NCBI GenBank assembly: GCA_040437565.1
Contig: JBDOQK010000031.1
Location: 62,001-126,000, forward strand
Length of the DNA: 64,000 nucleotides
Reading direction: 5' to 3'
Source: Albugo candida
Lineage: Eukaryota
Both the position numbers and the translations under genes were made by a program. The notes beneath the pieces are model-generated. The model worked only from the letters and a program-made list of their open reading frames with translations. It had not been told where the DNA came from and did not search any database. Below are positions 20,226-48,432 of the stretch, piece after piece (the stretch's first letter is position 1; every line of letters starts with the position of its first letter).

Positions 20226-20793
20226 ACTTTCGTTCTCGAGTGCTTTAATAAATGCACAAGAGCGACGAATAATAGCCAGCAGCTTTTATAGAACGTCATG
20301 AGTAGTGTGCGCAACGCAATTTTAGGGCATATGAGCGCGATAGCATCGCCAAATTCTTCCTCACCTTTTGTCTGAGAGGAGTTGATCAATGAGAAACACT
20401 GTTTTCAGCCTTCAACTGTGCATATACATTCTGAGTGTACACCGGTGCATCTTGTGTAAAAAAAACGAAACACCGAGTGGCGATTTCAACTACTTTGTTT
20501 GGTGAGTGCATAAGATACTTTAGGACTAACAACTCATCGCCACCGCAATTTTGAGTTGGATGAAAAAAGTACTGTCTATGTCATGGACAAAATGTCTCGG
20601 TCGCATTTTGGTTGTATGAGTAACGGAATGTTTCACTTTCATTGTGACCGTGAGCCTTGGCTTCTTAATTATGGCTAATAAAGTGTTTCTATGGGATGTG
20701 TCCGAGAAAAAGATGACTATTTATATGAAGTTGGTTGACATTCATTTTGAGTGCTGAGAAAATCCTTCCATAAAACTTTCAGCACTCACTTTG

Positions 20794-22627
20794 AAATGGC
20801 CCAGCTATAAGCTTCGCCTAACCATCTTGCACAAGAGTTGAATTTCTCTGGGTAATAAAGATAATGGACAGATGGCTGGTCGGTAACATCACAAAGAATT
20901 CCTTGTGATTTGTCACTAAATCACTGTCAGTAGCACTAAGCGCCACCTCTGGGCACAACAACGATACCTGAACTTTGTTGTGCAATAAACGACAGTGACG
21001 GTCTGAAATCCAATCTACCGGCACGTCAGAGAGAAAACGGATCCAGTGATAATGGATGCAAATCGTGGGGCAGTAAATAAGAAAAATTAAATCAACGCAA
21101 AAGCTTGAATTTCTCGATTCAAGTCGTGTACTATTTGATGGACCTATACAAACAACGCGACATTCCAATCGCGTCGCAAGCTCGACAAGATTGTACGTAG
21201 CAAAGAGGCGCTTGATCAGGAGTAGACGCTAACTCATCTGATGGACTATCGTTCGAGTTAATGTATTCACAAAGACCCTCATGAGACGCCCAACCACTAT
21301 TTCAATCATATTTTCTGAGATTGTATAGATTCGTACAAGCTTGCGTACGTATGTGCATCCTCTTGGAGCTGCTTTAGAAACGATGAAACCTTCGGAAACG
21401 TGAGCACATGAGTCTACTTCGTTAATACGTTTATGCTTTTCATCAAATCCTTTATTTAGGCCTCTTTAGTTGTGTGTATCTTGTCCAGACTTGTTCTTTC
21501 CGTGGCAAAATTGATTATGATGGATTGCTATCGGCTCGCGAAATCTGGTTTATTGAATCAGTACTGATGATTCACTTACTAATGACTAGTGACCATGACT
21601 GCTTTTATTACAGTAATATTACTGATTATTTCTAGTTCTCTACTAGATTAAAAATAAAGNNNNNNNNNNNNNNNNNNNNNNNNNNNNNNNNNNNNNNNNN
21701 NNNNNNNNNNNNNNNNNNNNNNNNNNNNNNNNNNNNNNNNNNNNNNNNNNNNNNNNNNNAAATGGCCCAGCTATAAGCTTCGCCTAACCATCTTGCACAA
21801 GAGTTGAATTTCTCTGGGTAATAAACATAATGGACAGATGGCTGGTCGGTAACATCACGAAGAATTCCTTGTGATTTGCCACTAAATCACTGTCAGTAGC
21901 ACTCAGCGCCACCTCTGGGCACAACAACGATACCTGAACTTTGTTGTGCAATAAACGACAGTGACGGTCTGAAATCCAATCTACCGGCACGTCAGAGAGA
22001 AAACGGATCCAGTGATTGTGGATGCAAATCGTGGGGCAGTAAATAAGAAAAATCAAATCAACGCAAAAGCTTTAATTTCTCGATTCAAGTCGTGTACTAT
22101 TTGATGGACCTATACAAACAACGCGACGTTCCAATCGCGTCGCAAGCTCGCCAAGATTGTACGTAGCAAATAGGCGCTTGATCAGGAGTAGACGCTCAAC
22201 TCATTTGATGGACTATCGTTCGAGTTAATGCATTCACAAAGACCCTCATGAGACGCCCAAACACTATTTCAATCATATTTTCTGAGATTGTATAGATTCG
22301 TACATGCTTGCGTACGTATGTGCATCCTCTTGGAGCTGCTTCAGAAACGATGAAACCTTCGGAAAACGTGAGCACACGAGTCTACTTCGTTAATACGTTT
22401 ATGCTTTTCATCAAATCCTTTATTTAGGCCTTTTTTGTTTTGTGTATCTCGTCCAGACTTGTTCATCCGTGGCAAAATTGATTATGATGGATTGCTATCT
22501 GCTCGCGAAATCTGGTTTATTGAATCAGAACTGATAATTCACTTACTAATGACTAGTGACTATGACTGCTTTTATTACAGTAATATTACTGATTATTTCC
22601 AGTTCTCTACTAGATTAAAAATAAAGA
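20794..22627. repeat. ~870-bp direct duplication either side of a gap (20794-21659 vs 21760-22627), with scattered SNPs/indels
   Basis: Near-identical sequence with visible substitutions (e.g. ATAAAGATAATG vs ATAAACATAATG; GATAATGG vs GATTGTGG). Confidence 0.85.
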
Positions 22628-23111
22628 AAAAATTCAGTTGGTTTTTAATCTATTTCGTATATGATTGGATGAAATAATTTCATGCGCTCAGTCACTAGTG
22701 AGATAATAGTCAGCTTTTTATCACAGTGATATTTCTGATTATTTTCTAGTTTTCTACTAGATTCAGAGTAAGTGAGTTATTACACTGCTTTTTATTACAG
22801 TAATATTACTGATTATTTCTAGTTCTCTACTACTTTGAATCTAGTTCTCTACTACTTTGAATCTAGTAGAGAACTAGAAATAATGAGTCATATTACTGCA
22901 ATAAAAAGCAGTGTAATAACTCACTTACTCTGAATCTAGTAGAAAACTAGAAAATAATCAGAAACATCACTGTGATAAAAAGCTGTCTATTATCTCACTA
23001 GTGACTGAGCGCATGAAATTATTTCATCCAATCATATACGAAATAGATTAAAAACCAACTGAACTCTTTCTTTATTTTTAATCTAGTAGAGAACTAAAAA
23101 TAATCAGTAAT
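22585..23111. repeat. Large imperfect palindrome/foldback element, ~250-bp arms with internal subrepeats
   Basis: 22585-22832 is the reverse complement of 22864-23111 with few mismatches. Recurring unit TGATTATTTCTAGTTCTCTACTAG. The centre holds a 22-bp tandem duplication. Confidence 0.92.
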
Positions 23112-26999: not shown

Positions 27000-28535
27000 T
27001 AATAGTAGAGTTTCTTTTCGACGCTTAAAAGCTGCCCGTTGCTGAGATTGCTTTTTGTTTGATACCGGTTTGATGTCGGCGGCGTCGAGGTTATGTCATT
27101 GAAACGTTGTGACAAGCAAGGCAGATTTAGGAGACGAACGAGCTGAAAACATTCGGACGGGACTGTACTTTGGAGGCGCAATGGCATGTGATGAATCCAT
27201 TCAGGCAGCAATGTCAGTAAATCTAATATAAAACTTTTTCCAACGCCCATTTTTTCCAAAATGCGAAAAACATGTACGTCCGATTGACTCGATCATTAGC
27301 TTTCTCAAAGTCGAGAAAAGTCGCATAAGCTTCCTCCCCACGATGAGTGACCAAGTCTTGGATGTCGGTGAGATGTCGAATATGACGATGCATTGACCTT
27401 CCGCGAACAAATGCTTTTTGATCTTGATGGATCAATTTTGGCAAAAACCGTTGCAATCGATACGCCAACACTTTTGGAAGTACTTTCACATCGACGCAAA
27501 GCAGTCGATCGGTCTATAGTTGCCAGGATCACCTCATGATCCTTTTTTGTATAAAAGTGTGATTGCTGAGTGACGTTGTGANNNNNNNNNNNNNNNNNNN
27601 NNNNNNNNNNNNNNNNNNNNNNNNNNNNNNNNNNNNNNNNNNNNNNNNNNNNNNNNNNNNNNNNNNNNNNNNNNNNNNNNNGACCCCAGGATGGTTATCG
27701 GCTGGCACTCCCGCTGTTGCCAAGCATCCTTCGGTGGAAACCATCATTCGTAGATTGCCACCAGGCATCTCGATACTTGAGCAATGGCTCTGCTCTCCAG
27801 TGGACTCTCGGATACCGGATTACCATGATCCTTCATAAGGGAAAAAGTATTTTTCCGTTTGGTGTACGCACCAACGCTTGACCTGTTTCCAGAATCATCG
27901 GATAGGTGGCCTTGGATACCTTAAAAGGCTTCGCTGCCTCCAATTTCGTTGCCAAGACCGACCACTCTGGATGCTGTTCATCGGCGTACAACTGCACGAT
28001 AGCCTCGATACCCGAGGCTTTCGGCTTTGGGAGCTCGAGCGAAATTTCGCCCGATCTCTAGCCTGATCCTTACGCAAGGACTCCTGTGACTTGATAAGGT
28101 CAGCCAAAGTGGGACTTTTAGTGTCGTCCGTACTTGCAGTTGCCTTTGTGTCACCCTGTGACGAGGCAACGACAGTACCACAAGTATTACCGGTACCACA
28201 CGCGAGGCGGATACCACATCTGATACCGGTATCACTTCCGACAACGGTTTTACACTTACTTAAAATATTTACACTATTTAAATTGAATTTTATAAAAAAA
28301 AATTATTAAAAATAAATAAAAAAATAAAAAAGGAGATGGTCACACTGGGGGTGAGGGTTCTCCACGTCATCACACAGGGGTGATGACTCATGAGGGCTGC
28401 CACGTCAGCACAAGTGGACGCTAGTACCCTGGGTTGTGTCGATATGTCTACTTGAACGATTGTTTTCGAGAGGAAAGAGTTGAAAAAGTAGTTTTTCGAG
28501 TTTTTTTGTAATAAATTGGCGGGTTACGTAGTAGC
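27000..28535 (-). mobile_element. L1/Tx1-like non-LTR retrotransposon relic (5' end, ORF1 remnant, RT fragment)
   Basis: RT KVLAYRLQRFLPKLIHQDQKAFVRGRS...FLDFEKANDRV (27223-27489). Broken ORF upstream on the same strand (27682-28250). The terminal ~160 bp recurs inverted at 35663-35820. Joining the parts across the gap is inference. Confidence 0.65.
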
Positions 28536-28551
28536 TGTCAAATTAAGAAGT

Positions 28552-28629
28552 CGGTCAGGGGCTCATGATAGGATAAGGAAGGTAGTTAAAGAACCAGATA
28601 AACAGTGTAATGAAATCCTTGACAAAGTA
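28552..28629 (+). mobile_element. 3' fragment of SINE family A
   Basis: Matches the 3' end of the copies at 29659-29907 and 35323-35569. Confidence 0.8.
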
Positions 28630-28724
28630 AAAAACTTGGGTGGAAATAACGCCGTAATCTGATTGGTCAAAAAATCACGCGGTGGGTGGAAATAGCAAAA
28701 AGTTGGGTTGAAATAGCAATTCCC
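28630..28724. mobile_element. Solo terminal inverted repeat of the GGGAATTGCT MULE-like family
   Basis: Ends AATAGCAATTCCC and matches 36810-36905 (inverted) and 37676-37756. Duplicated after the gap at 28897-28985. Confidence 0.75.
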
Positions 28725-29658
28725 TTTTACAATTACATCATGTCATCGATATTTCGACATGTTCACAATAACGCTACAACGACAAAAACAACGGCTNNNN
28801 NNNNNNNNNNNNNNNNNNNNNNNNNNNNNNNNNNNNNNNNNNNNNNNNNNNNNNNNNNNNNNNNNNNNNNNNNNNNNNNNNNNNNNNNNNNNNNNNTTGG
28901 GTGGAAATAACGCCGTAATCTGATTGGTCAAAAAATCACGCGGTGGGTGGAAATAGCAAAAAGTTGGGTTGAAATAGCAATTCCCTTTTACAATTACATC
29001 ATGTCATCGATATTTCGACATGTTCACAATAACGCTACAACGACAAAAACAACGGCTGTATCGTTCGATGATGGACGAATAAGCATGCGATGATCCTGCT
29101 TTTTGATAGAGCTAAACTAAAAGCACAAGGACGTCATAGTGTACGAGGCCCATCTGCTCAAATTGAGCCTCTGATCCGTGTGGCTTTGATAACCATCTTA
29201 GAACCGAAAGAGCCGGTAAAGAAAGATTTGCTTGATTGGAAAGACTCTTCAGTTCGTAGTTTCTCTTCAACTTCTGCAATAGATTCTTTCGAAGTTGAGG
29301 AAGCCGATGAGTACTGACTGCCCCCACGTATAGGTCGGACTGGATCATCGCATTGACGTGGGTGATCAAATGAATAAAGGGGTCCCGCAGCTCCTCCGCC
29401 ACGCAGCGTCTTGATGAGCGTTCCTTCCGTATTTCCATGGCTCTCAAATGAGCTCTTTGTGCGCCACGAAAGTCTAAAATCTGATCCCGTAGACGAATGA
29501 GTTCCTCCAAATGCTTCTCTAACTGCTTCCGCAGACTCTGTGATGTGTCGATTACTCGCTTCTAGTTTCTTGATATGATCGTCACGTACTGCAACTTTTC
29601 GTTTCATTTCTTTGGCGCTCTCCTCCGATGTTGCAAACTTTCGAAGAAGCTGACGGTG

Positions 29659-29907
29659 TACTTTGTCAAGGATTTCATTACACTGTTTATCTGGCTCTTT
29701 AACTACCTTCATTATCCTATCATGAGCCCCTGACCGTGTGAATATCACTTAAGTCGGACTTCAAACTTAGGGAGGCAGATATTTTCCAAGCTTCTTGCTT
29801 GGGTGGACTCAAACCGCTGCCCACACTGCCGGGGATCGAACTAACGACCTCGGGCAGGGGGTCCGTGCGCTCAAGTGCTTAACCGACTGAGCTGGGTACG
29901 GGACCCC
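29659..29907 (-). mobile_element. tRNA-derived SINE family A, ~250 bp
   Basis: A-box AGCTCAGTCGGT and B-box GTTCGATCC, followed by ~170 nt of non-tRNA body. A second full copy lies at 35323-35569. Confidence 0.85.
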
Positions 29908-30035: not shown

Positions 30036-31415
30036 NNNNNNNNNNNNNNNNNNNNNNNNNNNNNNNNNNNNNNNNNNNNNNNNNNNNNNNNNNNNNNNNN
30101 NNNNNNNNNNNNNNNNNNNNNNNNNNNNNNNNNNNACATGATCACACCTTCAATACCGGGTCGGGCTACCGCACAAATACGATTAACTGGTCGTCTTGTT
30201 CGGTGAACACGTGGTCAAACTGAAATTCATGAGACACCGCTTCTCTCTACAGAAAAAGATGAGAAATTTGAATACATTCTGATCGCGCATGAATGGCGCA
30301 CCTTGCAGTGGACGATGTTCTCGCTTGTTTGAGCACATTTGCGCTCGTTTTGGTTGAATTTTTGCATTGAAAGGTCTTAGTCGGCAACAAACGCGAACGT
30401 TGCCATATTCTTCGTGCTATTGAGTCATTTGGTATTAGAAATGCATCTTTATGAGTGGTCATGAGCTTACTTTTGGAGTCACCATAGAGGATCTATTTGG
30501 TAGCTTCTGTTTACCTTCTCAATTATTATTACATTGCCAGGAAGCCAGACAATGATAGCATGTGAATTGAACATAACTGATTAGCAATGGATGAAGATAT
30601 CGTGTATTTGACGAATCAAAATGTGGTGATTAAGGCAGCAGTATTTGCCATTTTCTAAGCATGTATTAGTAGCTATAGTGGCAACATGGATGGTAAAGAA
30701 GCCTGTAGTAATTGTCAAAGCTTACGGAATAGCACAACTTGCATAATTTTGCTCGCGCATCGTATCCGTTTAAATCTACTGCAAAATGAATGACGGCGCG
30801 ATGACGCTAGTGAAAGAGAGTGCCTTCCCGCCCCAGCTTTGGATAGCTATAATGTATCGATAGCTCAGGGCCTCCGGTTGCTCCTATGAGTGAATGTCGT
30901 GCTCACTACAATTCTAAATGAAAGTAACGCTGGACATAGCATCCTCTACCATGTGTACATTATTCAAGTAAACAATTGGATGTATTCAGCCACAATCAAG
31001 ATGCAATCATACCGAGAAGATCGTCAAACTCTTAATCCAACTACAGTGATTTATTCGTCTAGGATACATTCCGCACGATTTCACGGTGAGAGCCAAAATC
31101 CTTTCCGTCAAATTTAGTGTGGTATCTCGCTAAAATTTGGACGCCCAACCACACCTAAACGGCTGTTTGGTGACAACATGACAGATGGGACAAGGAGAGA
31201 CGGTCACTACGTGGGACCATACTGAAGTCATGTGAAACGTGACATAGTAATGTTTGTAATCTCATTGCACATGCATATTGTAATGTTGAAAAAAAAGGTT
31301 AATGCTGAATATATTTTACTTTAATTCTACCTGCATTGCAACAAGGGCATTCGATTTTTTTTACTTTTAGCACGATCAAGGTTGTTCATTGTGGTTCTTA
31401 GAGGAGATAAAAAAG

Positions 31416-33951
31416 CCGGTATAGCCACATACCCTAACTGAAATGAGAACACCGGTATCGCCACACCCCTAATATCCTAAATAAATGGGAACCGGTATCG
31501 CCGCACTCGCTAAATTAAAATTAATTAAGGGAACCGGTATCACCCACTTCCGTATTAAATTACAGGTTTACTTCTTGTTTGCAGGACCCACATCTTCGTT
31601 TTGCCAGTTCCTGCCCCTCTCTCTTAATTTACACAAATGCGGAAAGATCTCACTAGATACTTGTTGATCCTTTCGGCCGTCCACGTGAGGCCACTGTGGC
31701 AGGATCATCTACCCCTGGGCTTGGAATAGATGCAAGGCAACTGAGACCATGCTCAAAAGGCGCTGCCTGTGCAGAGGCAAGACCGAATAACGCTCTTGCA
31801 AATTCTTCATAATTTCCGAAAAGCTTGTTTTTTCCTGACTAGGCATTGCAGGTTGCATTGGGGGATGTACAGGCTTGAGAAGCCACCAGTGCTCATAAAT
31901 GAGCTTTATGCAAGATTGACCCAATTTTGCAGCTCTTTGATGGCATGAGAGCACGGCAATCGTTTAGTGCTCGTGAATGTTCTAGTGCACTTTTCATAAT
32001 TCTCCATCGATAGTGCCTTTTGGTACTGCTTGAAGACCTACAGAAAACAATAATATGGTCAATGCATACCTTGCCAGCTGTGGAGAGCTATATGCATACA
32101 GTAGTGCATAAAGTGAGATCTTTCTATTCACAATTGTCCACAAGCTCCGACTAAGTTGGACATTAATGTGTGAACGATCGTAGCATACCAATTTCTCATA
32201 AATTGTTGCAATCCCCTGTTGAAAGTGCGATCCATTTCTTCAAGGTTGCATGTCTGCCTTCAGCGCGAGATGTAGCTACATAGCCACTCTCATTAATAGC
32301 ATCTTTCAGAAGCACCCAATTCTCTTCGAATTCCTGTTTAGTGGTAGAGCATTACAATCCGTGCCACTTTGCGAAAACTTCTTTCCAGTCTTCGTCCTTT
32401 GGAAAGTGCTTTTAGCATTTTCCATGACATTCTTATTTGATATGCCATATGCAAAGCAGATTCTTCGCTTCAGGTAAAACCCGTGAGGTTGCAGCCATCA
32501 ATGCCAATTATCTGTCAGTGACAATGGCAATCGGCCGAGTGATTTTACCTTGAAAAGTATCCTCATTAACCCCAGTGCCCCAATGTAGTCGTCTTCTGAT
32601 TCGTGTCGCGAGAATACTTAGCAAAGGGAATCTGGCAGGTTTGTGTATGACACACCCATGACATGGAGCAATGGCATTTGAAACCTGGAGATTATTTGCT
32701 CTTAGTTGTTGTTGGAAAACGATTGATTGAATCCCCCCAAAAATCCCCCCTAAAAAATATTGTCTGACGAGATGCAAGGCTTAGGTGCAGTTAAGAGGCG
32801 CGATAATTGACCCGATGAGAGATCCCTCTCGATCTCATGTCTAATGGCACTTTCCTCTAGTGTGTCCAGCAATGCTTACAAGAGGGCAACGACCAAAGAG
32901 AAACTCCGCTCGTTCACGTTTTCTACCATGGTAAATGTCTTGCCCGGCGGCAAAAAAAAAGAAGCAGGATCAGACCGCTTCATCGTACTAAAAATTAACC
33001 GAGGAGGTGCTCCGCCTTTTGGAAGTCCAAAATTTGCTGCTTCTGCACCTGGTTCAATACCCTGGTTTCTGGTACTGCTGCAATATTCTCTGCTGCCTCA
33101 TGATTGTGAGTTGCAACGACCACACTCACTCGCCATTCTTGCATAGAATTTTGATTCAGCCTGCGCTGAATGGTGACTAATCATGGGCAAAATAGAAGCC
33201 GCGTTGATGTTTGGTGGATCGTCGTGTCCTTGTTTTTGTACCGACCACCGTGGACGCAAGCAAGCCACACCTTCAAGTATTTCCTTACTTGTCGGTCTTT
33301 GTGCGGGCTTTCTTTGTGCAATAGCCTTTTTTCCCGGCAAAGGTTTGTACTGCCTCTTCTGCAAACTCATAGGTCTCATAGGTGTGTTCCGCGGGTAGAG
33401 CAAGTGGCATAGTGAGGATAGAGCATACGTTAGCGTAGTTATAGCTAGGGCTACAAATGGATCTAGAATCAGATCCATTCAGCAAATGGACCAACTCTCA
33501 GATCCAGATCCAGTGGATCCATTTGCAGCCCTACTTATAGCAATGTATGTAGGTGTNNNNNNNNNNNNNNNNNNNNNNNNNNNNNNNNNNNNNNNNNNNN
33601 NNNNNNNNNNNNNNNNNNNNNNNNNNNNNNNNNNNNNNNNNNNNNNNNNNNNNNNNATACGTTAGCGTAGTTATAGCTAGGGCTACAAATGGATCTAGAA
33701 TCAGATCCATTCAGCAAATGGACCAACTCTCAGATCCAGATCCAGTGGATCCATTTGCAGCCCTACTTATAGCAATGTATGTAGGTGTATAGCGAGTTGA
33801 CTAATTTGGTGTGTGGCTATACCGGATTCCTTAATTAGGGGTGTGGTGATACCGGTTCCCATTTATTTAGGATATTTAGGGGATACCGGTGTTCTCATTT
33901 GAGTTAGGGGTGTGACTACACCAAAAGGGGTGTATGGCTATACCAAATGCC
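31416..33951 (-). mobile_element. MULE A with degenerate FAR1/MULE transposase
   Basis: TIRs with repeated ACCGGTATCGCCAC units. 9-bp TSD ATAAAAAAG (31407-31415, 33952-33960). FAR1-like TYETYEFAEEAVQTFAGKKGY and MULE-domain IAIVTDR*LALMAA...LPEAKNLLCIWHI. Confidence 0.85.
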
Positions 33952-34039
33952 ATAAAAAAGTGTGATCTTATTTTATGGGAGCTTCTATCCGGACACCCCC
34001 TCTTTGCTAATCAACCCCCCCTCCTCCCATATGTTTTAT

Positions 34040-35072
34040 GGGAATTCCTAAACTCACCCCATCCACTTTTTTAGCCAATCCTATTTTATTATTTTAATTA
34101 ATCTTGAGTGATTTGATCAAAAGTGGAACTTGATGCAGGACGCAACCTGCAACTCCTGGCATTATGTCCTGTTGCTTGACAAATACTGCATGTGGGAAGG
34201 CGCTAGGTTTGTGATATAGAAATCAGAGTTTGATTTCTGGCTGGACATATTCAAAAGCTGAAGGATCTCTTTGTGCTGAATGATTGCGTGAGCCTGATGA
34301 TCTGCCTCTTCCCTGATTGTCGGAGGATCTTGGATTGTTGTGTTTGTATTTGATTGTTGGCGAATTGAATTGTAAATGTAATTTTGCCGATGAGGTAGCT
34401 CCAAAGTTAGCAAGTCAAAAATTTCCCGTCTTTCTTGATTAATGTAGGTTGATGGGGGTTTCCTGCTTGAGCCACCATTGTGAGTCAAAGTCTTTTCTTT
34501 GCAAGTGGTGTGTTGTGTTCAATTAGCTGGTTTAATTTATGTTCACATTGTATGCCCAAGGTCAGCTAATGTACACCGGTGCAAGTGGTCCTTGGTAATT
34601 CGCTATTTCGCTATTGTTGTTGGGGTTCAATTGATACTGATTTCGGGCTATATTCAATGCATGCTTTATTCTGAATTTTCTTGAATTGAGTTGCACAAGA
34701 AAGCCTAATCCTATTGTAAACAGAGAGCAAATCCCTGAAACTTTTACCGATGTAGTTTTTTAATGTTGCATGCATCCCTTTTAACAAGTGCTTATTAATA
34801 ACCGCACAAACGGTCGCACACAGAGACTTATTATTTAAAAGGTATGTTGGGAACTCCTTAGCATTTATCTTATGTCTCTCTACGACCTTTCACTGCCTAC
34901 GACTCTTCACGAGATGGTGATCTTCCACCAGTGGAGATCTTCAACTTACCGTAGCTGTATGCAGTAGATCCGGCTGGCTAAAATATCAAATGTGATTGGA
35001 TAGAAATGGGATTGGCTAAAAAAATGGATGAGGTGAGTTTAGGCAAAAGCGAGGATGAGTGTAGGAATTCCC
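34040..35072. mobile_element. Non-autonomous MULE C nested in B
   Basis: TIR GGGAATTCCTA..ACTCA.C.CATCC. Perfect 9-bp TSD ATGTTTTAT (34031-34039, 35073-35081). Confidence 0.88.
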
Positions 35073-35322
35073 ATGTTTTATATATTTGTATATACCTCCC
35101 CCCCCATCATAATCAAATATGAGTCAGTACCTTGTGATATTTTGGTCTGTCTATGTGTTGAGTTCGGCGTTTCAGTTTTGGTAAAGGGAGATGCGTTGAC
35201 AAGATTCCATCGACATATAATTTAAGGGAGCCGCTATGGCCACAGACATTAATACTACGGCCACAGAAAAAACTACTACGGCCACAGACAATTGATCTAA
35301 CCAGTCACAGCTCACAAAGTTA

Positions 35323-35569
35323 TACTTTGTCAAGGATTTCATCACACTGTTTATCTGGTTCTTTAATTACCTTCCTTATCCTACCATGAGCCCCTGACCG
35401 TGTGAATATCACTTAAGTCTGACTTCAAACCTAGGGAGGCAGATATCTTCCAAGCTTATTGCTTGGGTGGGCTCAAACCGCTGCCCACACTGCCGGGGAT
35501 CGAAGCAACGACCTCCGGCAGGGGGTCCATGCGCTCAAGTGCTTAACCGACTGAGCTGGGTACGGACCC
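35323..35569 (-). mobile_element. tRNA-derived SINE family A, second full copy
   Basis: Near-identical to 29659-29907. Confidence 0.85.
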
Positions 35570-35662
35570 TAAAGTGATCGACAGGTATCGATGTAGGGAC
35601 CTTTCGCATAGCGTTCGTGCACTATACTGACTGAGCTAGTGTGTTAAACTTCTCAATTTGCC

Positions 35663-35820
35663 GGCTACTAAGTAACCGCCCAATTTAGTACAAACAACTC
35701 GAAAAATCAACTTTTTTCAACTCCTTCCTCTCGAAAACAATGGTTCAAGTCGACATATCGACACAACCAAGGGTGCTAGCGTCCACTTGTAGTGACGTGG
35801 CAACCCTCATGAGTCACCCA
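35663..35820 (+). repeat. Second copy of the element end seen at 28375-28535 (probable L1-like 5' end), running into a gap
   Basis: Reverse-complement match to 28375-28535. Confidence 0.7.
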
Positions 35821-36809
35821 NNNNNNNNNNNNNNNNNNNNNNNNNNNNNNNNNNNNNNNNNNNNNNNNNNNNNNNNNNNNNNNNNNNNNNNNNNNNNNNN
35901 NNNNNNNNNNNNNNNNNNNNTTAGCAACATTAAAATTTTGTGAGCTGTGGTTGGTTAGATCAATTGTCTGTGGCCGCAGTACTTTTGTCGGTGGCCCGTA
36001 GCGTTAATGTCTGTGGCCATAGCGGCTCCCATAATTTAAATGTGTAAATGCTATGACTGCTGAATCTATCGTTGATTTACTGATTGGTTGTTTAAGATTG
36101 TGTAATGAATGGGAAAGGTTATCACAAAACTAAGAGCGACGAATAAAATTCTCCATAGCCTGCCTGTACATTCCTAATTGCCACCTGCTTATACCTATCT
36201 CCTCATTTTGATTTTAAGGCTCCCAGCTGGGCCAAAATTTCCGCGCGGAATTCTTGGGCAAGCGGGACATCGTCGGCGGAATCGTTTATCAATTTTAATA
36301 GCCTGGAAAAGAACCCGGTAAGAAGAAATCATACACGAATAATCGAGGCTTACCTCATCGTCGTTGGTAATTGTTATTGTGATGGGATGAGTCTGGACAA
36401 ACGGCAGATATCAGTTAGAAAGTATCAAACGGGTCTTGAGACAAACCTGCATGCATGAATGGTGTTTAACTTACAAAATCGCGCACTATTTCAAACAGCA
36501 CGGTCGTTCAATTTCGTCATGGCGACGGAAGTCGCCCGTGGTTGAACTATTTCAATGTCGTGTGGACCACAAATCGACCCTATTCCAACAGGAAGACGTT
36601 AAGGTGGAGAAGAGGCCGTGGTCATGTAGCACATATGTGTTGAATAGAGTAAGGGGTGTCCCGTATAAGATCTGCCGTGCAATAATATGTAATCCTTTTA
36701 TTATCCTAAAAAAGCGGCGGGGGATGTTTATCAGTATATATAAAACATATGTGGGGGGGTCCGGTTAGCAAAGAGGGGGTGTCCAGATAGAAGCTCCCTA
36801 TTTTATTTA

Positions 36810-37756
36810 GGGAATTGCTATTTCCACACAACTTTTTGCTACATCCACCAACCGCATGACTTTTTGACCAATCAGATTACGGCGTTATTTCCGCCCAAGT
36901 TCTCTACTAGGGAATTGCTATTTCTACCCACCACGTGACTTTCTGACCAATCAAATTTCAGCTTTATTTCCAATCAACTTTTTACTATATGGCTACAGTT
37001 TCACAGTCTTGCATGCCGATCGAAGGTATCAGAACTCAAAGTTGCACACCTTTCTAGAATCCCAATTCTAGATCAGCTAACTTTATCATGCTTTTCGTTG
37101 TACCGCGTCGTTCGCAAACAGTAAAGTACGCATCTACGGATCGCCATCATATGTCGCCTATATACTACATCCTGCGAGAAAGTCTTTGGAAGTTGAAAGT
37201 ACGTTCAGCCTGGTCTGATAATTGGACTGATAACGACAGCGGTCTTTTGCCGTATTTTTTTGTAACACGAGAAAAAATTAGAATAACTTGTAAATACATT
37301 TGTAACTTGTTTATGCCGGTTTTCAAGCGCACAGACGCCCTGGAGTTGTACTGTTATGGGATGGGCTATCGTTTCCAGATGTTGCACGTAGCTGTTTTCA
37401 GCGGACTGCCATTTTTATACCGCTATACCGCTTGTATGCATCACCCGAATTCCGAAGTGCCCTATGGTGCAATCGAGTTCACGTTTGCGTAAGCTCTAGC
37501 GGAATTCTTTGTACTGAAAAAGGTACTCTTCATTATCTCTTATGGATGCGACACGGATAGCGGATTTTCAATACACCTGGTGTCAGGCCGTTCATTGCAA
37601 ATTATATGCATCCAGGGTGGGTCTACCAATCAAAACTTCTGAGAGAGGTGCCCCTATCATAAATAGGTGGGTGAAAATAGTAAAAAAAATTGATGGAAAT
37701 AACGCCGTAATCTGATTGGGCAAAAAGTCACGCGGTGGGTGGGAATAGCAATTCCC
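36810..37756. mobile_element. Non-autonomous MULE-like element E with doubled left TIR
   Basis: GGGAATTGCTATT at 36810 and again at 36910, and AATAGCAATTCCC ending at 37756. 8-bp TSD TTTATTTA (36802-36809, 37757-37764). Confidence 0.78.
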
Positions 37757-37767
37757 TTTATTTATTC

Positions 37768-39901
37768 GGGAACCTATGAAATTTATACCACTTCTTATAA
37801 AAATATGTTTTATATACAAAAAGTTTGAAAAGTATGGGTTATATACCAGAACGAATATTACACGGGTTAAATTGCAAACAGATGAAAAATACGACAAAAA
37901 CTCTGGAATTTATTTATAATTACAAAAAAAATACCAGAAAGTCTGAAGTTTACACATTCTTGAGTGCCATATCGCTAGAGCATTCACATCTGACGAATAT
38001 GGCGGATATGGCGACTGCCGCCAACGACAGCTACGCTGGCGAGACACAAGGGTCAAGTGACGGCTGCTGGCCAGGGGACTGGGGAGATGGGAGTGCATAT
38101 TTCTACTCACACAACTACATCACTCGCGACGACATATCACGTTCGATAGTTAAACACGACGAGAAAGTTGGACGAGCGTTTCGTGTCATATCGAGCGACC
38201 GCAGACGCTACAAGGTGCTGTGTGTCGATCCAAATTGCAGCTTCGCAGTCGCTGTTGCGTATGATAGGGAATTTAAGCCGCCTCATACGTTCGTGCCGCA
38301 CACATGCGACGCTACGAGGGTTGACTTGGCTTCATGCGAAGCGAGTCGTGGAAAAAAGACTTCAGTCGTCGCTTCGCTTGATTCGGCCCTCCAGTTCGTC
38401 GTTGATAATGGTCGTGACGCCAATCCAGCTGAGATGTAGAAGAAGCAGACGGCTAATAGGCGTCAAATGACGTACCAGAATTCTGTCGACGCCTGCATTC
38501 GACTCAAAGCGCAAGTCTTCGATAAAGACCGCACACAGTATCAGTTCATGCTGTCACACGTACACGAAATGAACAGAAGCGGACACAAGGCAGACATCGC
38601 CTTGCGTGAGGACAAAATGTTTCGGGCTGTCATCGTGTACAAGCCCGAAATTCGTGTGCTTCGCGAATTTGCAGATCGCTGTATCAATCTGGAAGGCAGG
38701 CACATTCATAAAGCACAAATATGGTGGAGTCCTTCTTGTCGCTTGCTGGTAAAACAGCAACAATGAGATCCAAATTGTCGCGGTCGCTTGGGTGTTGAGC
38801 GAGTCAAAAAACAATTGCTCATGGTTCCTGGACTTTCTTCTACGGTGTATAGAAGCGCCAGCGTTCGTTATCTCTGACCGTGACAAGGGTCTCATTGACA
38901 TCCCTCACTTTGTTTGTGTTTGTCACATACTCGAGAATGTCAACGCCAGTGCGACACTGAAGGACCAGGCATGCAATCTGGCAAAGTCCTTTACGGCTGC
39001 GTCGTTCGAACGGAGAGCCAGTGAGTTGAAGAAACAATTCAAAGGCGTTGCAATGGCTACTCGATGCATACAAGCTCAAATGGGCTGTCGCGTATAGTAC
39101 GTACGCGCTTTGGGACCATGGCAAGCAACAACGTGAAGGTTGTTGATAACATCCTGCTTAAGGCTAGAGAGGAACCACTTCTGGACTGCTTCATGGCGGT
39201 GGAAAATTACATGGGGATCAAGCGGGTTAAATTTGTCGCCAAGTCGGATTCGTGGTGGGAGCTCACAGCTTACGAAAGCAAGAATTCGAGCGCAAGCGCT
39301 TTGTATCTGTCGTTGACAAGATCGAAATCATCCCGAGTTGCATGTCATCCTTCGTGGTCAAGGTGAGGAAGGATGGGGAGCTGTCGAGTGTTCTGTCGAT
39401 CTAGATAATCCTGAAATTCCGTGTTCTTGAGGCTACTTTGGTGACATGAAAGGGCCACGCTATCATCTCTATGCGGTCCTTCTATGCGTCAACAAGCTGT
39501 AACTACTCAAGACTTTCTATGATGCGTCGTGGACCAAGGAGTTGTACGAGCGTGCTTATGACCCTATGGTAAAGATGATTCCATGAGTGACGATGGATGG
39601 ACTGACGCGTTTAGAATAGCACCATCCACTCACGATGTCAAAGAAACGTGGCCCTCCGAAGAAGTCGAAGCGAATCGAGACCCAGGGCCACAGAAGCTTT
39701 CAAGAAGAAGCGCAGCAACAAGTTCACTACATGCGGTAACTACGGCCACAACAAGCGCACCTGCTAGGATTATTCTTTTCCTAGTTATAAAACAATATAA
39801 CTTTCATAATTTTACATCAACTTTGAACTTTTTGGTGTATTTTTCAAATTTTTGCATAAATCATATTTTTTGAAGAAAGTAATATAAAATCCCCATATTC
39901 C
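37768..39901 (+). mobile_element. MULE F with degenerate MuDR-type transposase
   Basis: SSDRRRYKVLCVDPNCSFAV (MuDR), FVISDRDKGL..CVCHILENV (MULE DDE), a SWIM remnant and a C-terminal knuckle CGNYGHNKRTC. AT-rich imperfect TIRs. TSD TATTTATTC/TATTGATTC (8/9 match). Confidence 0.85.
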
Positions 39902-41359
39902 TATTGATTCAGTTGCAATTTATCAGACCAAACAGAGGCCACGGATTTCAATTAATATATCAATAAAGTGGGTGGGGGTGAATTACGACTTCTTTTTAAA
40001 TTTTTTTGTTATCTTGGTATACTATTTTATAATCCCTAGAAGATACTTCATTATAAAAAACAACTTTCAATTAATTTTGTATTTTCATATTTATATAAAC
40101 CAGGCAGCCCCACCCACCTACAAGGTCCCCCGCACGACTACCTTCGGGTCGTTTATGTTGAAAGTATTTATTATGCACTTGTTGCAATAGAGGTAGGTGT
40201 AAATGTGAGTATATTTAGCGGTAACCTTGTTTGTCAACACCACAACATGCATGTGCAACATCATTACAAACTTGACTATGTAATCATTTACACGACGTCC
40301 GTCTGGTCCCTCGTGGTGACCGTCTCTCCTTGTCCCATCTGTCATGTTGTCACCAAACATCCGTTCAGGTGAGGTCAGACTTTACCTCTAATGGATCTTG
40401 TAGTAGAGACTTAAGCCCTTGACGACCTATGAGAAACAGTATCGTCTAACACTTTACTTCCTTCACTTCCTACTACCCGTGTCGAAAACATTTTTACATA
40501 ATATACCACCCTCGAAGCGATATTTTCCCCGTTATCACAGCGGGGTCTTGACTCATCGATAGTCGTGCAAGTCAAAATGTCATCACAACTGCACGCTAAG
40601 ACAGTTGCTTGTTGCGTTTAAAAGCATTATACTGTATTGGTTTTCTGAGGATGCTTCGCTAAATTGGCGGATTGCGTGGTAGCCGGAAAATTGAAAAGTA
40701 AAACTGCAGGATATGTATTCAATGGACTATCGAATTTCCCAAACGTTATTCCTTCCATGAGTATGCAATACAGAACTTGTACATTTCATGAAAGCTTATG
40801 GTCGACGACATGCTAAATACATCCAAGCAGAGGCTTGTACAATCGCTGTACTATCCAATGCTACTGTCTCACCATGTACAATTTGGATCGACTAGGCTTA
40901 TAAACTCCTTCAATGTTGCTGTTTTCTAAGTTGGCAAGTAGCGACAAGTTGTTAGAACGCTAGCTGCTTCCTATACCACGTACCAGGCGACGTATTGACC
41001 TGCCCCTGAGGCATATTCTGAAGGCAATGAAAAAAAGAAAGAAGCGGCAGGAATATCTCAGTCTTCCGTGAAACTCCTTTCACACTAAACAACTTACTTT
41101 CTTACCTCTGGAGATTTACCCTTCTGTATGTCTACTTCCACGGTGAGAAGCAAGGAGATATTTAGTCATTGTCGAAGCTGTCACACAACGCTGTCGGCTC
41201 ACACGGGCATGATATATTACCTGAACAGTGTTACACCTTTTTCCTCAGATTTACCTACACGCTTTTAAGCCGCATCCAGATAAAAGTTTTCTGCTTTTGG
41301 GGCCCCTTTCCATCGTCTGTTGCTTTCGAAATTATTTTTTTTTGCGCACAAACAACGGC

Positions 41360-42790: not shown

Positions 42791-45700
42791 ATAAAGAGTT
42801 CTTTCGCCCGATACGTTCGTTTCGGACTTTTTCTATCCTGATTTCACTTCCTGCACTTTCTCGAAGGAGAAAATGCGTAGATACTGACTTTCAGAGAGCA
42901 TTCCATGTGCGATGCTGAACTCGATTCCAAGGCATAACAAGAAGTATTTGGCCATATTAATCTATCAAGATCTTGTTTCATGTACTTTCCTATAGCAACA
43001 GATGTGTAGCCAGTAGCCTATATAGAATGTGCATAATTCAATTTCAGGCCATAAAAAATGGATGTGTTTGGCAGCTTTCTCCATCAAAATTCCACTACCT
43101 GCAATTTCTCCGAGCATCTTTTGGTAGCTAGTGGCTTTTGTGGAATGAAGCTGTTCAATGTCCATAGACAAACCAGCACCATGAAAGGCTATGTTCACAT
43201 TCTCCATCAAGATGTTCTGTCTAGTTTTTCAAGGATTTTATGACCCTTTATCTCGTCCTTCGACGACATTCCGTATCCTATGATTAGTCCTTGACCGTGT
43301 GAATATCACTGAAGTCTTGCTACAACATGTGTTTTCTCTAGGAGCAGTTTTGTAGTCATTAGCTTTTAAAGAGCGTACAAACTTATGTGTCTCACGCATG
43401 GAAGGATTCCCATCCCATAACTTACTTGCCAAGTGTCTCGCACTGCTTCGTTTAATTTCGCAGGACGGTCGCATCACCTTTTTTACATCTTTTTTTTACC
43501 ATATTTCCGTGCTCTTAGCAAGTTAGTTGACCTTGGCTCGTCGTGATAGCGAAAATACAAAAGACGTCGTAAGGTGGAACGAGGTATAGGATGTGAGCAT
43601 GACGGACCACCTATTTCTCGTCGTTGGCGTTTTCGAAGATTAGTTAATAAAAGTACCTATCTTAGCTGGTCTAAACCTTTCTTTATGCTAAATGGAGTTT
43701 TTATTTATTACTTTGGTGCTCATCTTCGCTACTTTCGAGTTTGTAATAAGCGCGCTGACAAGCATTCAAAGCTAAACCGTCCCTTCTACCGGTGTATCGC
43801 TGCAAATGTATCGTAAACATCGTCCAAGACACTTGTAAGACCAAATAGCCACTGCCACGATTGATAGCTTTAACGACATTCTATATCGGGTTATCGCTAC
43901 CTTTCTATTATCTACAACGTAAGAGTATATTGAAGGATGCAAATCCACCAAGTAAACTTTGATGCGAGGTTTTCGTCCTCTTATCTGATGCATGCCCAAA
44001 AACGCAAAGGAGCCATCACGGTCGTGAATTTTATGTGAAACTGACATAACTAATTATCCAAGCTGCTGCGGAATGTAGGTGAAGCTCTAATCAATATACG
44101 ATGCTGGTCTCGAGGTGGAAGGTCGATAGAAAAACGACAAAATGCCATGTCGAGGTTTATTTAGCCATTGATATGAGAGTCACTCAGGATACATGGATTC
44201 CGCGCGTCTGATACGCATTGAAGTGCGGTTATTGCATGACAGTACTCTATATGCTGGTACTGAGACTTGTAAACAGCTCGGCATTCTCGTTCCAGGTCTC
44301 TCCATGCAACTAATATTTCAACAGCGTATATAGAAGCTCACTCAATATTCGAGTCATGTGTGCTTACCTACTCGATCCGTCGTGTGAAGTTCCTTTTAAA
44401 TTACGGATTGAGCATTTCTGGAGAGTGAGGTTCATCTCCAAATAGGTTCGAGGGGAGGTCATAGCGAAATATTGATAGGAGCAGACACTTTTGTTGCGAT
44501 TAATAAGGCATATTTCTATTAGTTTTCGATTTCAGCTCCTTTAAATAGTATCTGTCTTACCCCACCACGCTACGAGACATGCGCAGTTGTAACATAAAAA
44601 AATAAGTACAAATAGTCAAATAAACCGGGGTTCCNNNNNNNNNNNNNNNNNNNNNNNNNNNNNNNNNNNNNNNNNNNNNNNNNNNNNNNNNNNNNNNNNN
44701 NNNNNNNNNNNNNNNNNNNNNNNNNNNNNNNNNNAAAGCCATCCAACTAGGACTAGGATTGAGTTGCACTTGCAGTTCTACTTGCCATTGCCATTCCCGC
44801 AGCAATGATGGTCGGGAGTTCGAAACCAGCGAATTTTTTATCCTTTTTAGTTAATCGATACCTACGCCGGCTGATGGAGCTCGTGTTGATTATCAAAACC
44901 ACATAAGGTACCAAAAGTGCGCACCAAACGTGGTGCAGATTACAAAAAGCGCTTGCATTGTGAGCTAGATCGCTAATTACGATTCAATTTGGTCCATATT
45001 GTGGTTCATCGCATGCTCTGAAAGCCCGTTAGGTGGCAAAACCCATTGATAGTCTTCCACTCTGTCGGCACAATAGCACATGCAATATTCATTCAACGCG
45101 GTCAGGAGAATCGTAGCCCTAATGTGATCTGGTTTCGCATTCACACAGAACATGTCAGTATGAATGTATTTTACCAGCCAGAATCTAAATCGAATTGACA
45201 GCATCAAAAGAGCAGGACAGTCCTGAGGACACCATTTCGAAGATATCGTGATGTAGCAATAAACGTTCGAAGTGTTCTGTATTTGCAAGTCTGAGCGCTT
45301 CAGAGATGGCCAATTTGTCGACGAAGAACAATTTCAGGTTGCTTGATTGGGTTCCCGAACAATTTGGGAGAGTTGGGAGGGTCGAATAGATGGGAAAAGC
45401 ACTTTTTCTCCATGTTAGCACTTCCAGAAACGGTCTTGCGCTTGTAGTTATGATCTACTAACTAGGTGACTTCATCTAGGTGACTTCATCCTGCTCATTG
45501 CGAAGCAACTCTTCTTCGCCCTTTAGTATGTGTAGGATCTATAATCAGGAATTTATAATTTTCATTGCCATGGTACAAAAAGACAAGCGTCTACAAACAA
45601 TCCCTCAAGCTTGACGGGCTGGAACTAAGTGAGAATAAATGGATCGAAGAAGCAGCGAATGGCAAGCACACGAAAGATTATACAATTAATAAACTTTTGA

Positions 45701-45829: not shown

Positions 45830-46858
45830 CTAGGCGGCGGTTTCCGGTGTTACAAAGTCGGTCAGCTTCAGCCACCATTCTGGATATCCTGGATTCTCCA
45901 AGTCACTATTAGTCTCTCCAGTCAAGATCATTCCATCACTGTATTTTGCAATCAATATCCATGCCAATTTCCACCATTCATCTACAACATAAGCTGCAAA
46001 TTTATTCTTGGATTCTTCCAAATAGGTTAAGTCAGTTGCATTTATATCGGAGCCAAATCTGTGATTGTCAAGCTTCTTTTGGAATTCAAATGCCTCTTCC
46101 TGCAGCTCCTTAGCACGTTGCCGAACATCTATGCTTATAACGTCGAAACGCAAGAGGCTCCAGTTAAACACAAGATTGAATACTCTCCACGAAGACTTGA
46201 AACTAAACTCACTCTGTTTTCCAATCAGATATGATACTGGAATGCTTTTTTGCTGACATGAAAATGGAACATAAACTGTTCCGTGAGGGCAACCTTGTCC
46301 GTACCAAATAATTCCGCCAACAGCATCTGGTAAAAATGATCTTGTTTGTAAAACATAGCTGTATATAGTTCGATAGATTGATATTGGCCGTTCCCATCGT
46401 CCAAGAAGTGAATATGTTTGCCAGCGAACTGGTGATCCGAATGGACCAGCCGCGATACCTTTCGTCAAATCGTAGCGTGTGTTCTGATAATAATCTTTGA
46501 GAACATCCATCACATTGTTGGCAGTTACGAGTGCATCTGGTTTGACGGAGAACGGATATGTCTTTTTCTTCGCCCACCAGCCTAACCGAGAATCCAACAG
46601 AAGAGATGGAGCCAGAAGATCGTACACTCTCCACATGCGTCTACCGATCGTGTATGCGACGAATTCATCGTGCTCTTGATATCCATAAACCTTTGTAAAA
46701 TCGAACGGTTTGCCTAGTGAACTGTTCCACCAACCCATCTCCTCACAGAGACTGAAGATGTTTCTGGATGCCATGAAGAAATCCGGTTTTTTCAAATCGA
46801 TCTCGCGTATTGTAAATCCGTTTGCGATCACTGTGATATGATCATCGGCAACGCGTTG
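45830..46858 (-). CDS. C69 peptidase paralog (copy 3), C-terminal half, ends before the TM anchor
   Basis: QRVADDHITVIANGF...PGYPEWWLKLTDFVTPETAA* is colinear with copy 1. The 5' part lies in the gap. Confidence 0.85.
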   Translation of the reverse strand, partial: QRVADDHITVIANGFTIREIDLKKPDFFMASRNIFSLCEEMGWWNSSLGKPFDFTKVYGYQEHDEFVAYTIGRRMWRVYDLLAPSLLLDSRLGWWAKKKTYPFSVKPDALVTANNVMDVLKDYYQNTRYDLTKGIAAGPFGSPVRWQTYSLLGRWERPISIYRTIYSYVLQTRSFLPDAVGGIIWYGQGCPHGTVYVPFSCQQKSIPVSYLIGKQSEFSFKSSWRVFNLVFNWSLLRFDVISIDVRQRAKELQEEAFEFQKKLDNHRFGSDINATDLTYLEESKNKFAAYVVDEWWKLAWILIAKYSDGMILTGETNSDLENPGYPEWWLKLTDFVTPETAA

Positions 46859-46958
46859 NNNNNNNNNNNNNNNNNNNNNNNNNNNNNNNNNNNNNNNNNN
46901 NNNNNNNNNNNNNNNNNNNNNNNNNNNNNNNNNNNNNNNNNNNNNNNNNNNNNNNNNN

Positions 46959-48068
46959 GTTCTGATAATAATCTTTGAGAACATCCATCACATTGTTGGC
47001 AGTTACGAGTGCATCTGGTTTGACCGAGAACGGATATGTCTTTTTCTTCGCCCACCAGCCTAACCGAGAATCCAAAAGAAGAGATGGAGCCAGAAGATCG
47101 TACACTCTCCACATGCGTCTACCGATCGCGTATGCGTGCTTCTGATTAGGCCCTTGATATCCATAAACTCGTGTGAAATCAAAAGGTTCGACGTAAGACT
47201 TGTTCCACCAACCCATTTCTTCACAAAAACTGAAGATATTTTTGGATGCCATAAAGTAATCCGGTTTTTCCAAATCGATCTCACGTATTGTAAATCCGTT
47301 TGCGATCACTGTGATATGATCATCGGCAACGCGTTGAGCCGCCCAAACAGCGCTGGCGTTATTTTTACCGGTCAAAATGTTGAAGATCCATACTTCTCCA
47401 TGTTTGTCGGAGATAGCCAGTGATTCAGAGGAATCTGAATATGCTGGTCTATCTGGGGAGCCACTTAATTCACCGTAAAAGCCATACTCTTCCGCCAGGG
47501 AGCCCATTGTTTGAATAGCACAGCGAGCGGAGACGCATCGTTCTAATGCAATTTTTGAAAGCTCATTGATTGAAAATAGATTGTATCCGTAGGACAGATA
47601 ATTGGGCCATCCAACGGTACGCGCTCCACATGTACTTTCAGGCATACTCAACTGCATGTCATTCATAATTCCATAATCTTGGTCATAGTAGCCGTACGTA
47701 TTCGAAATTTGTGGTATGTACCCCAACGGAACAAAAAGTTCTTCAAAACGTTTTGTATCTGACGAATTAAAAGGCTCAAGCTCTTTAGGCTTGTAATTCG
47801 GGCCGCGATCATTAACGACCAGACGTGGATACCCTGCGTTAAATTCATAAACAGCTCTTCGAGAGTTTGCAGAATGTTGTTGAGCAGGTACTCGGACAAG
47901 ACGTAGATCGGATGGCACAAAACCGGTGTCATCAGTGTGAGCAAGTAGCGTCGACCCATCTGCTGTCGCTTTTTTGCCGCAAGCAATCACCGTACAGCCT
48001 GATGCGTATGACGATATTACAGCAACAAGAAAACACCTGAGCAACGCTTGTGGCTTTCCAAGTCGCAT
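46959..48068 (-). CDS. C69 peptidase paralog (copy 4), N-terminal part
   Basis: Signal peptide + SG|CTVIACGKKATADGSTLLAHTDD, open to the gap. Differs from copy 3 in the overlapping segment. Confidence 0.88.
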
Positions 48069-48090
48069 ATTCTTGTTCTTAAGTACTTGG

Positions 48091-48106
48091 AATATTGTAA
48101 AATGAG
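48091..48106 (-). promoter_or_regulatory. Oomycete Inr/FPR-like core promoter upstream of C69 copy 4
   Basis: CTCATTTTACAATATT resembles the oomycete CTCATTYYNCAWTT consensus. Confidence 0.55.
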
Positions 48107-48432
48107 AGGAACAATTCTCTCGCCTCTCGCTTTTTTATAGGGTATTGCTATGTACTATACATATGTCAATTTAAAAGTATTCCTCAAGTTTCTCCATGTA
48201 AATTCTTACTTCGGGCACTTTCTCGATGCAACTTTGTGTAGCCAGTAGCCTTCATAGAACGTACTGAGTCCTGTGCATGACTGAGTCCCGAGCCATAAAG
48301 GATTCATTCCGCATATTTTGCCGTCAAGATTTTACTTCCTGTACTTTATAGGAGCAACAATTGTGTAGCCAGTAGCATTTAACGAATGAGCTAAAAATTT
48401 AACTGCGTGACGCAATCCCAGGTTATAAAGGT

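What the first reader, a model, noticed from the sequence alone, without database searches (positions are those of the whole stretch)
31148..40375. Mutator landing pad: four different MULE-like elements inserted within 22 bp of one AT-rich site
Removing elements A (31416-33951), B (33977-36798), E (36810-37756) and F (37768-39901), each with one TSD copy, reconstructs a single empty site, GAGGAGATAAAAAAGTGTGATCTTATTTTATTTATTCAGTTGCAATT. The insertion points are 16, 3 and 3 bp apart. The four have unrelated TIRs, so these are independent events, and the site lies inside another small TIR element. MULEs prefer AT-rich DNA (established), but stepwise 3-bp spacing suggests a strong hotspot, either insertion next to existing MULE ends or a safe-harbour role for the host element (inference).
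Basis: partly seen in the sequence, partly recalled or inferred. Interest (0 to 1): 0.78.

Follow-up and report, generated by a model that had tools for sequence, protein, structure and literature searches.

The report
Mutator transposons stacked inside another's end
Four old, dead jumping genes of the Mutator type landed side by side in one short AT-rich stretch of a fifth Mutator element's end, a habit seen repeatedly in this water-mould genome and mostly explained by re-use of a favoured landing sequence in DNA where damage does not matter.

Summary
The four elements, their 8-9 bp target duplications and the 16/3/3 bp spacing are real. Contigs from three public runs span four of the five junctions. 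The true host is a fragment of another MULE's TIR (K); the computed empty site aligns with 11 uninterrupted K copies. The stacking recurs. 21 of 77 and 13 of 40 MULE ends lie in or beside another family's TIR. Genome-wide, 14 back-to-back end pairs lie within 30 bp (0.34 expected), 11 of them at 7-12 bp. Against targeting: a local AT-matched null gives 19.7% vs 27% (p=0.066), and a symmetric target model leaves only a modest excess at 8-13 bp (p 0.0004-0.16). Best reading: target re-use plus safe-haven survival; TIR-end-guided insertion is not excluded. No empty allele was seen. The scan's notes held no earlier MULE-stack finding.

The parts
31145..31372 (+).
31377..31415 (.). Left remnant of host MULE K (inner side of its TIR), including the left copy of A's TSD (31407-31415)
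   Evidence: 86% to K184 1795-1830
31416..33951 (-). Element A: decayed MULE with stops and frameshifts; left end lacks about 5 bp of the family end; contains a false gap (true length about 2304 bp)
   Evidence: PF10551 28.6 bits vs cut-off 27.6 with X at stops, weak FAR1 hit
33952..33976 (.). 25-bp spacer: A's TSD, 8 bp of K, B's TSD
33977..36798 (.). Element B: non-coding TIR element, 8-bp TSD; about 1 kb once C and D are removed
   Evidence: read joints skipping D show B-family copies without D
34040..35072 (.). Element C nested 63 bp inside B's left end, exact 9-bp TSD
35226..36030 (.). Element D nested in B, exact 9-bp TSD; contains a SINE-like repeat, repeat G and an N gap
36799..36809 (.). 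11-bp spacer holding B's right TSD and E's left TSD, overlapping
36810..37756 (.). Element E: non-coding TIR element, 8-bp TSD; closest copies 83-90% identical (highest of the four)
   Evidence: an element with E-like ends at G000:C35 carries PF10551
37757..37767 (.). 11-bp spacer holding E's right TSD and F's left TSD, overlapping
37768..39901 (+). Element F: decayed MULE, 9-bp TSD with one mismatch
   Evidence: PF10551 30.3 bits with X at the stop
39902..40034 (.). Right remnant of K's TIR repeat unit, starting with F's right TSD
40156..40451 (-).

Best explanation
Target re-use in a safe haven. (1) Shown: these MULE families insert into an 8-9 bp AT-rich palindromic target, about T-W6-A. 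(2) Shown: the TIRs of several of them (K, H, M, O, A, B) contain tracts of overlapping good targets, and the window's tract is such a tract of K. (3) Follows from cut-and-paste chemistry: each insertion copies its target, leaving a proven target directly outside each new end, so the next element tends to land 8-13 bp from an older end. (4) Inferred: insertions into already dead MULE DNA cost nothing in a gene-dense genome and survive, while others are purged, so stacks of different families build up over time. All four elements are now old and immobile.
For: Symmetric target matrix from 106 ends not beside another TIR: T 0.76 at position 1, A 0.76 at position 8; 166 of 219 outer ends have at least 7 A/T in the 8 bases outside. 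In the computed empty site, E's TSD is the best-scoring site of its tract and B's scores high. The symmetric model already puts 21-41% of events at spacers 8-13 bp of 8-61. The local AT-matched null (1626 of 8266 sites, 19.7%) is close to the observed 21 of 77 (p=0.066). An arbitrarily chosen 200-kb block has 0 termini and 9 of 11713 AT-rich sites in TIR-like DNA, so the elements are confined to islands. P-element dimers form by double insertion at strong target sites (10.1101/158386, passages).
Against: A residual excess at 8-13 bp remains: 10 of 16 genome-wide pairs (p 0.0004-0.065 across model variants) and 8 of 14 anchor cases (p 0.004-0.16; one pair counted from both ends). The model favours a spacer of exactly 8, yet only 2 of the 10 genome-wide pairs at 8-12 bp have it. 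To reach 27-33% of ends in or beside TIRs, only about a tenth of the genome may be tolerant; with a third tolerant the expectation is 3-7% (which assumes 500-1200 ends). The local null is not independent, because its TIR content comes from the same clustering. Purifying selection was not measured. In maize and rice, few coding MULEs insert into other TEs (PMC3903597, one passage).
Confidence: 0.58

Rival explanations
1. TIR-end-guided integration. The incoming transpososome, or free transposase, binds the shared end motif of a resident related element (a terminal or an internal copy) and joins its own end about one TSD length away, like the recipient-end attack of IS256-family transposases.
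For: 11 of 14 genome-wide back-to-back pairs lie at 7-12 bp, vs 4 pairs at 31-61 bp and 0 at 200-230 bp. 8 of 77 anchor ends have a partner at 7-13 bp and 0 at 14-30. 5 of 40 H ends have one at 7-9 bp. These sets overlap in part. The families share an 11-bp end motif. Partners include internal motif copies, which have no TSD of their own (at least 2 of 14). ISCth4 attacks 6-8 bp outside the recipient TIR, and IS256 transposases are similar to MULE transposases (PMC7780238, passages). Muta1 binds a 10-bp terminal motif with flanking DNA (PMC5499845, passages).
Against: The excess over the target model is about 1.5-3 fold and not robust. Most ends beside a TIR lie inside AT tracts at varied distances. 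The one eukaryotic MULE in the papers read moves by cut-and-paste with flank hairpins. Only 7 of the 14 pairs have a partner with a validated TSD, and only 1 has both, so some junctions may come from deletion.
Confidence: 0.22
2. Open-chromatin targeting. MULE TIRs act as promoter-like, nucleosome-poor DNA, and MULEs, which favour such DNA, land in their AT tracts.
For: The hot tract lies on the 5' side of K's transposase gene, next to a CCAAT motif. TIR promoter activity is stated for Mutator (PMC3310237, abstract start and passages). In the LTR control, 3 of 42 ends scored as beside a TIR, and I read all three as contamination of the D library by repeat G, so the effect is specific to the MULEs.
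Against: There is no fixed distance between insertion sites and CCAAT/ATTGG (counts per 20-bp bin 5,8,3,5,8,1,0,4,9,2 for 77 ends, background about 4). No chromatin data were available. It does not explain a peak only 6 bp wide.
Confidence: 0.14
3. Artefact: misassembly or chance TSD matches in AT-rich DNA.
For: The assembly has 15 gaps of 100 N in the window, many with duplicated flanks, including one in A and one gap in D. The B|E junction was not among the 24 of 6751 contig pieces shown.
Against: Contig pieces span K|A (3 runs), A|B (1), E|F (2) and F|K (3) (one run may be the source). The empty site is colinear with 11 K copies. No gap lies at any junction.
Confidence: 0.03

Closest known systems
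Mutator-like elements (MULEs), including type-2 foldback forms such as Muta1 (PMC6446971, PMC5499845; passages read)
   Same: 8-9 bp TSDs, long TIRs with subterminal repeats, PF10551 transposase in A, F and in relatives with E-like and K ends; oomycete MULE clades are listed in PMC6446971.
   Different: All copies here are decayed; about 27-33% of sampled ends sit in or beside another MULE family's TIR, whereas few maize and rice coding MULEs insert into other TEs (PMC3903597, one passage).
Double insertion at one target site: P-element and hobo dimers in Drosophila (10.1101/158386; passages read)
   Same: Ends separated by about one TSD; formed at sites that match the preferred target well.
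   Different: There the dimers described are of one family, mostly with a spacer equal to the TSD. Here different families stack, spacers are mostly TSD plus 0-5 bp, and the stack sits in a TIR of a further element.
IS256-family TIR-TIR junctions (ISCth4; PMC7780238, passages read)
   Same: Mutator-related transposase, AT-rich 8-bp TSD, one end joined a few bases outside another TIR.
   Different: There it is an intramolecular step that makes circles, with a 6-8 bp spacer. Here the junctions are between separate elements, 7-13 bp apart, each of the four in the window with its own TSD pair. The analogy is a lead only.
Tomato MULEs with tandem TIRs (PMC3310237; passages read)
   Same: Repeated TIR units at element ends, as in K.
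   Different: Those have no TSD around the inner TIR and move as one unit; here each stacked element has its own TSD pair.

Membership tests
MULE (elements A, B, E, F) | TSD of 8-11 bp | tested here: met
   A 9/9, B 8/8, E 8/8, F 8/9; range from PMC6446971
MULE (elements A, B, E, F) | Long TIRs (about 100 bp or more) | tested here: inconclusive
   Alignable TIR about 100 bp in A, 60-98 bp in B, about 80 bp in E, about 55 bp in F; all decayed
MULE (A and F) | MULE transposase domain PF10551 | tested here: met
   28.6 and 30.3 bits vs cut-off 27.6, read with X at stops
MULE (B and E) | MULE transposase in the element or its family | tested here: inconclusive
   No Pfam hit in the window's B or E frames tested. 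An element with E-like ends and an 8-bp TSD (L215) has PF10551 at 27.7 and 32.8 bits. No coding B copy found; B's assignment rests on its end motif and TSD.
MULE (host K) | MULE transposase, TIRs, 8-9 bp TSD in full copies | tested here: met
   TIR pairs with 8-9 bp TSDs; K frames align with A's MULE region, E 7e-7 and 1e-5; the Pfam hit on one fragment is only 17.8 bits, below cut-off
Active autonomous MULE | Intact ORF and intact ends | tested here: not met
   Stops and frameshifts in A and F; A's left end truncated; closest copies 75-90% identical
   The repeat occurs singly or as direct pairs; only a 2-bp flank match; it extends beyond the inverted match to 40156-40451
LTR of an LTR retrotransposon (31145-31372, 40156-40451) | TG...CA ends, about 5-bp TSD in solo copies, primer-binding and purine tracts beside paired copies | tested here: met
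   22 near-full copies of 35 hits; one exact and three 1-mismatch 5-bp TSDs seen by eye; 3 copies followed by one conserved motif and 3 preceded by a purine run. The PBS and PPT labels are recalled; internal coding region not tested.
Double insertion at one target (P-element type) | Same family, spacer equal to one TSD | tested here: not met
   Different families; spacers 25, 11, 11 here; 2 of 14 genome-wide pairs have exactly 8
IS256-type TIR-directed strand transfer | Transposase-dependent attack at a fixed distance from a recipient TIR | not testable with these tools
   Needs a transposition assay; the spacing is only suggestive

The most novel reading that the evidence does not exclude
A group of oomycete MULE families that share an end motif use each other's TIR ends as integration guides, inserting about one TSD length away. 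This would be a eukaryotic, inter-family counterpart of the recipient-end attack of IS256 transposases and a built-in way to avoid genes in a compact genome.
Probability: 0.22. Interest if true: 0.75.

Novelty: new variant of a known kind. Interest (0 to 1): 0.42.

Why it matters
It shows how DNA transposons can persist in a compact pathogen genome by piling into each other's ends, which differs from the low-copy, genic preference reported for plant MULEs. It gives a testable distance (8-13 bp) for asking whether MULE transposases are guided by resident TIRs. In practice such stacks confuse TE annotation: here an inverted LTR pair mimicked a TIR host. No effect on a gene is shown.

Tried and rejected
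Outer TIR host: rejected. Fixed distance to a CCAAT box: rejected (CCAAT as an oomycete promoter motif is recalled). My first, one-sided target model gave p of 5e-6 to 2.5e-5 for the 8-12 bp peak; the better symmetric model weakened it, and I rely on the latter. The first TIR-context count, 28 of 77, included self-family and library contamination and was replaced by 21 of 77. Empty or partly filled alleles: none among the 15 of 232 joints shown for 4 of 23 listed runs; contigs drop rare variants, so this is not proof of fixation. Order of insertion: not recoverable, since all orders give the same spacers. A larger random genome sample could not be fetched, so the unbiased background is one 200-kb block. 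No related genomes are held. No tRNA gene in the window. Literature: ten searches found no description of inter-family MULE stacking in an oomycete; the library lacks most subscription papers. PMC12595863 was searched for nesting terms and gave nothing relevant. All seven papers opened were read as keyword passages only; no supplements were opened.
Full report
Setting. The window is G000:C31:62001-126000 of a 36.6-Mb, 7503-contig assembly. It holds eukaryotic genes. I take the organism to be an oomycete, probably a white rust; this label is inference from gene content, genome size and unchecked earlier notes.

Observation. All four elements have flanking duplications at the stated coordinates: A 9/9, B 8/8, E 8/8, F 8/9; the spacers are 25, 11 and 11 bp. 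In the computed empty site the insertion points are 16, 3 and 3 bp apart. The TSDs of B, E and F overlap inside one 14-bp AT tract, so every order of insertion gives the same spacers and the order cannot be read. A and F carry broken MULE transposases (PF10551 at 28.6 and 30.3 bits, cut-off 27.6). B and E showed no coding in the frames tested; an element with E-like ends elsewhere has PF10551. B also holds two nested TIR elements, C and D, each with an exact 9-bp TSD. Closest genomic copies are 75-90% identical, so the insertions are old. A has lost about 5 bp of its left end, and its length includes a 232-bp assembly artefact.

Not a misassembly. Of 23 listed runs, 4 from 4 studies were laid. 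Contig pieces span K|A in three runs, A|B in one, E|F in two and F|K in three. B|E was not among the 24 of 6751 pieces shown. None of the 15 of 232 joints shown skips A, B, E or F. One run may be the source of the assembly.

The host. It occurs singly or as direct pairs in the other 28 loci fetched, shows 5-bp TSDs in some solo copies, and has conserved neighbours that look like primer-binding and purine tracts (labels recalled). It is an LTR. The real host is a fragment of another element, K (31377-31415, the spacers, and 39902-40034). The empty site aligns without interruption to 11 K copies at 70-77%. Full K copies are about 2.1-2.5 kb, have TIRs built of roughly 95-bp repeats and 8-9 bp TSDs, and have frames that align with A's MULE region. 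The tract lies on the 5' side of K's transposase gene. The matching tract in other K copies also took insertions: H twice (L253, L264) and B once (L101).

Genome-wide pattern. (a) Among ends of the A, B, C, E and F families found by sequence search, window excluded, 21 of 77 have another family's TIR 3-30 bp outside (18 of 61 by family and segment). (b) Among all 46 exact copies of the H end motif, 5 were internal repeats and 1 a duplicate; 13 of the remaining 40 meet the same test. (c) For the LTR control, 3 of 42 ends scored, all three through library contamination by my reading. (d) A degenerate end motif occurs 631 + 636 times (reversed control 377 + 397). Back-to-back pairs number 14 at 0-30 bp (uniform expectation 0.34; reversed control 0), 4 at 31-61 bp (control 1) and 0 at 200-230 bp. 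The spacers are 3, 7, 8, 8, 9, 9, 10, 10, 10, 11, 11, 12, 18 and 20. (e) Among the 77 anchor ends, 8 have a partner at 7-13 bp and none at 14-30; among the 40 H ends, 5 at 7-9 bp. These sets overlap in part. Other hosts recur: the TIR tracts of H, M and O. A second row of ends with spacers 36, 20 and 10 bp lies at G000:C1 near 223-228 kb, though TSDs validated there only for K and a nested D.

Results against special targeting. AT-rich 8-mers 100-1400 bp from the same anchors are in or beside TIRs 19.7% of the time (1626 of 8266) vs 27% observed, p=0.066; this null is inflated by the clustering itself. The target is a palindromic AT 8-mer. With a symmetric model, 21-41% of events are expected at 8-13 bp of 8-61; observed are 10 of 16 (p 0.0004-0.065) and 8 of 14 (p 0.004-0.16). 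My earlier one-sided model overstated the effect. Only 7 of the 14 genome-wide pairs have a partner with a validated TSD, and 1 has both; at least 2 involve internal motif copies. Some junctions may therefore come from deletion. No fixed distance to CCAAT was found.

Results that plain AT preference does not cover. A 200-kb block chosen without regard to TEs has no termini and 9 of 11713 AT-rich sites in TIR-like DNA. Assuming 500-1200 ends, the expected share of insertions in TIRs is 1-2% for the whole genome, 3-7% if a third is tolerant and 10-24% if a tenth is, against 27-33% observed in or beside TIRs. Strong regional confinement is therefore needed. Survival, chromatin or guidance could supply it, and I could not separate them.

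Mechanism. Most likely (0.58): AT-target preference (shown), target-rich TIR tracts (shown), renewal of the target by each TSD (follows from the chemistry), and survival in dead DNA (inferred). Rival (0.22): guidance by the shared end motif, by analogy with ISCth4, whose transposase attacks 6-8 bp outside a recipient TIR (PMC7780238, passages); Muta1, however, moves by cut-and-paste with flank hairpins (PMC5499845, passages). Rival (0.14): open chromatin at TIRs. Artefact 0.03.

Comparison and novelty. It works like P-element double insertion at a strong target (10.1101/158386, passages) but fails that definition, since the families differ and the spacers are offset. MULE features come from PMC6446971 (passages). 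In maize and rice few coding MULEs insert into other TEs (PMC3903597, one passage). Tomato tandem-TIR MULEs lack inner TSDs (PMC3310237, passages). Ten searches found no report of inter-family MULE stacks in TIRs of an oomycete; subscription papers are mostly missing from the library, and older work on MITE-into-MITE nesting that I recall was not seen. Verdict: real, recurrent, a new variant of nested or double insertion; interest 0.42.

Noticed in passing
window 35323-35569 (-), 29659-29906 and a diverged piece at 43219-43325: High-copy SINE-like repeat (94% identity between two copies, read depth far above the flanks) with a motif resembling a tRNA A-box (recalled); ARAGORN finds no tRNA.
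   Followed up: partly
window 35648-35820 and 28384-28551: Another high-copy repeat (G); elsewhere the LTR is inserted into it with an exact 5-bp TSD (L010/L012).
   Followed up: partly
window 28384-29057: Second nest: repeat G, a SINE piece and an E-family end abut one another; the E end's flank resembles the H TIR tract.
   Followed up: no
window, 15 gaps of 100 N: Many gaps are flanked by exact or near-exact duplications (66-868 bp), i.e. unmerged overlaps that inflate repeat counts and lengths.
   Followed up: partly
L210 (G000:C1:220500-229000): Row of H, H, K and E ends with spacers 36, 20 and 10 bp in M-type sequence; M fragments on the two sides point in opposite directions, which suggests an inversion.
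   Followed up: partly
L037/L045 (G000:C24:229376-233330): Independent B|E|K arrangement: E has the same 8-bp TSD as in the window but sits in a different repeat unit of K's TIR, 8 bp from a B end.
   Followed up: partly
L215:187-3044 (G000:C35): 2.86-kb element with E-like ends, exact 8-bp TSD and a comparatively little-decayed MULE transposase in pieces; a candidate parent of non-coding E copies.
   Followed up: partly
window 22585-23111: Near-perfect 527-bp palindrome with an inner inverted repeat (22697-22925).
   Followed up: no
window 18288-20285 and 45830-48134 (-): Two peptidase C69 gene copies inside a larger local duplication (about 15.9-20.2 kb vs 41.4-48.1 kb).
   Followed up: no
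window 5281-10581 (+): 1766-aa SNF2 chromatin remodeller with bromo, PHD, chromo, PDZ and NSD-type PHD domains.
   Followed up: no
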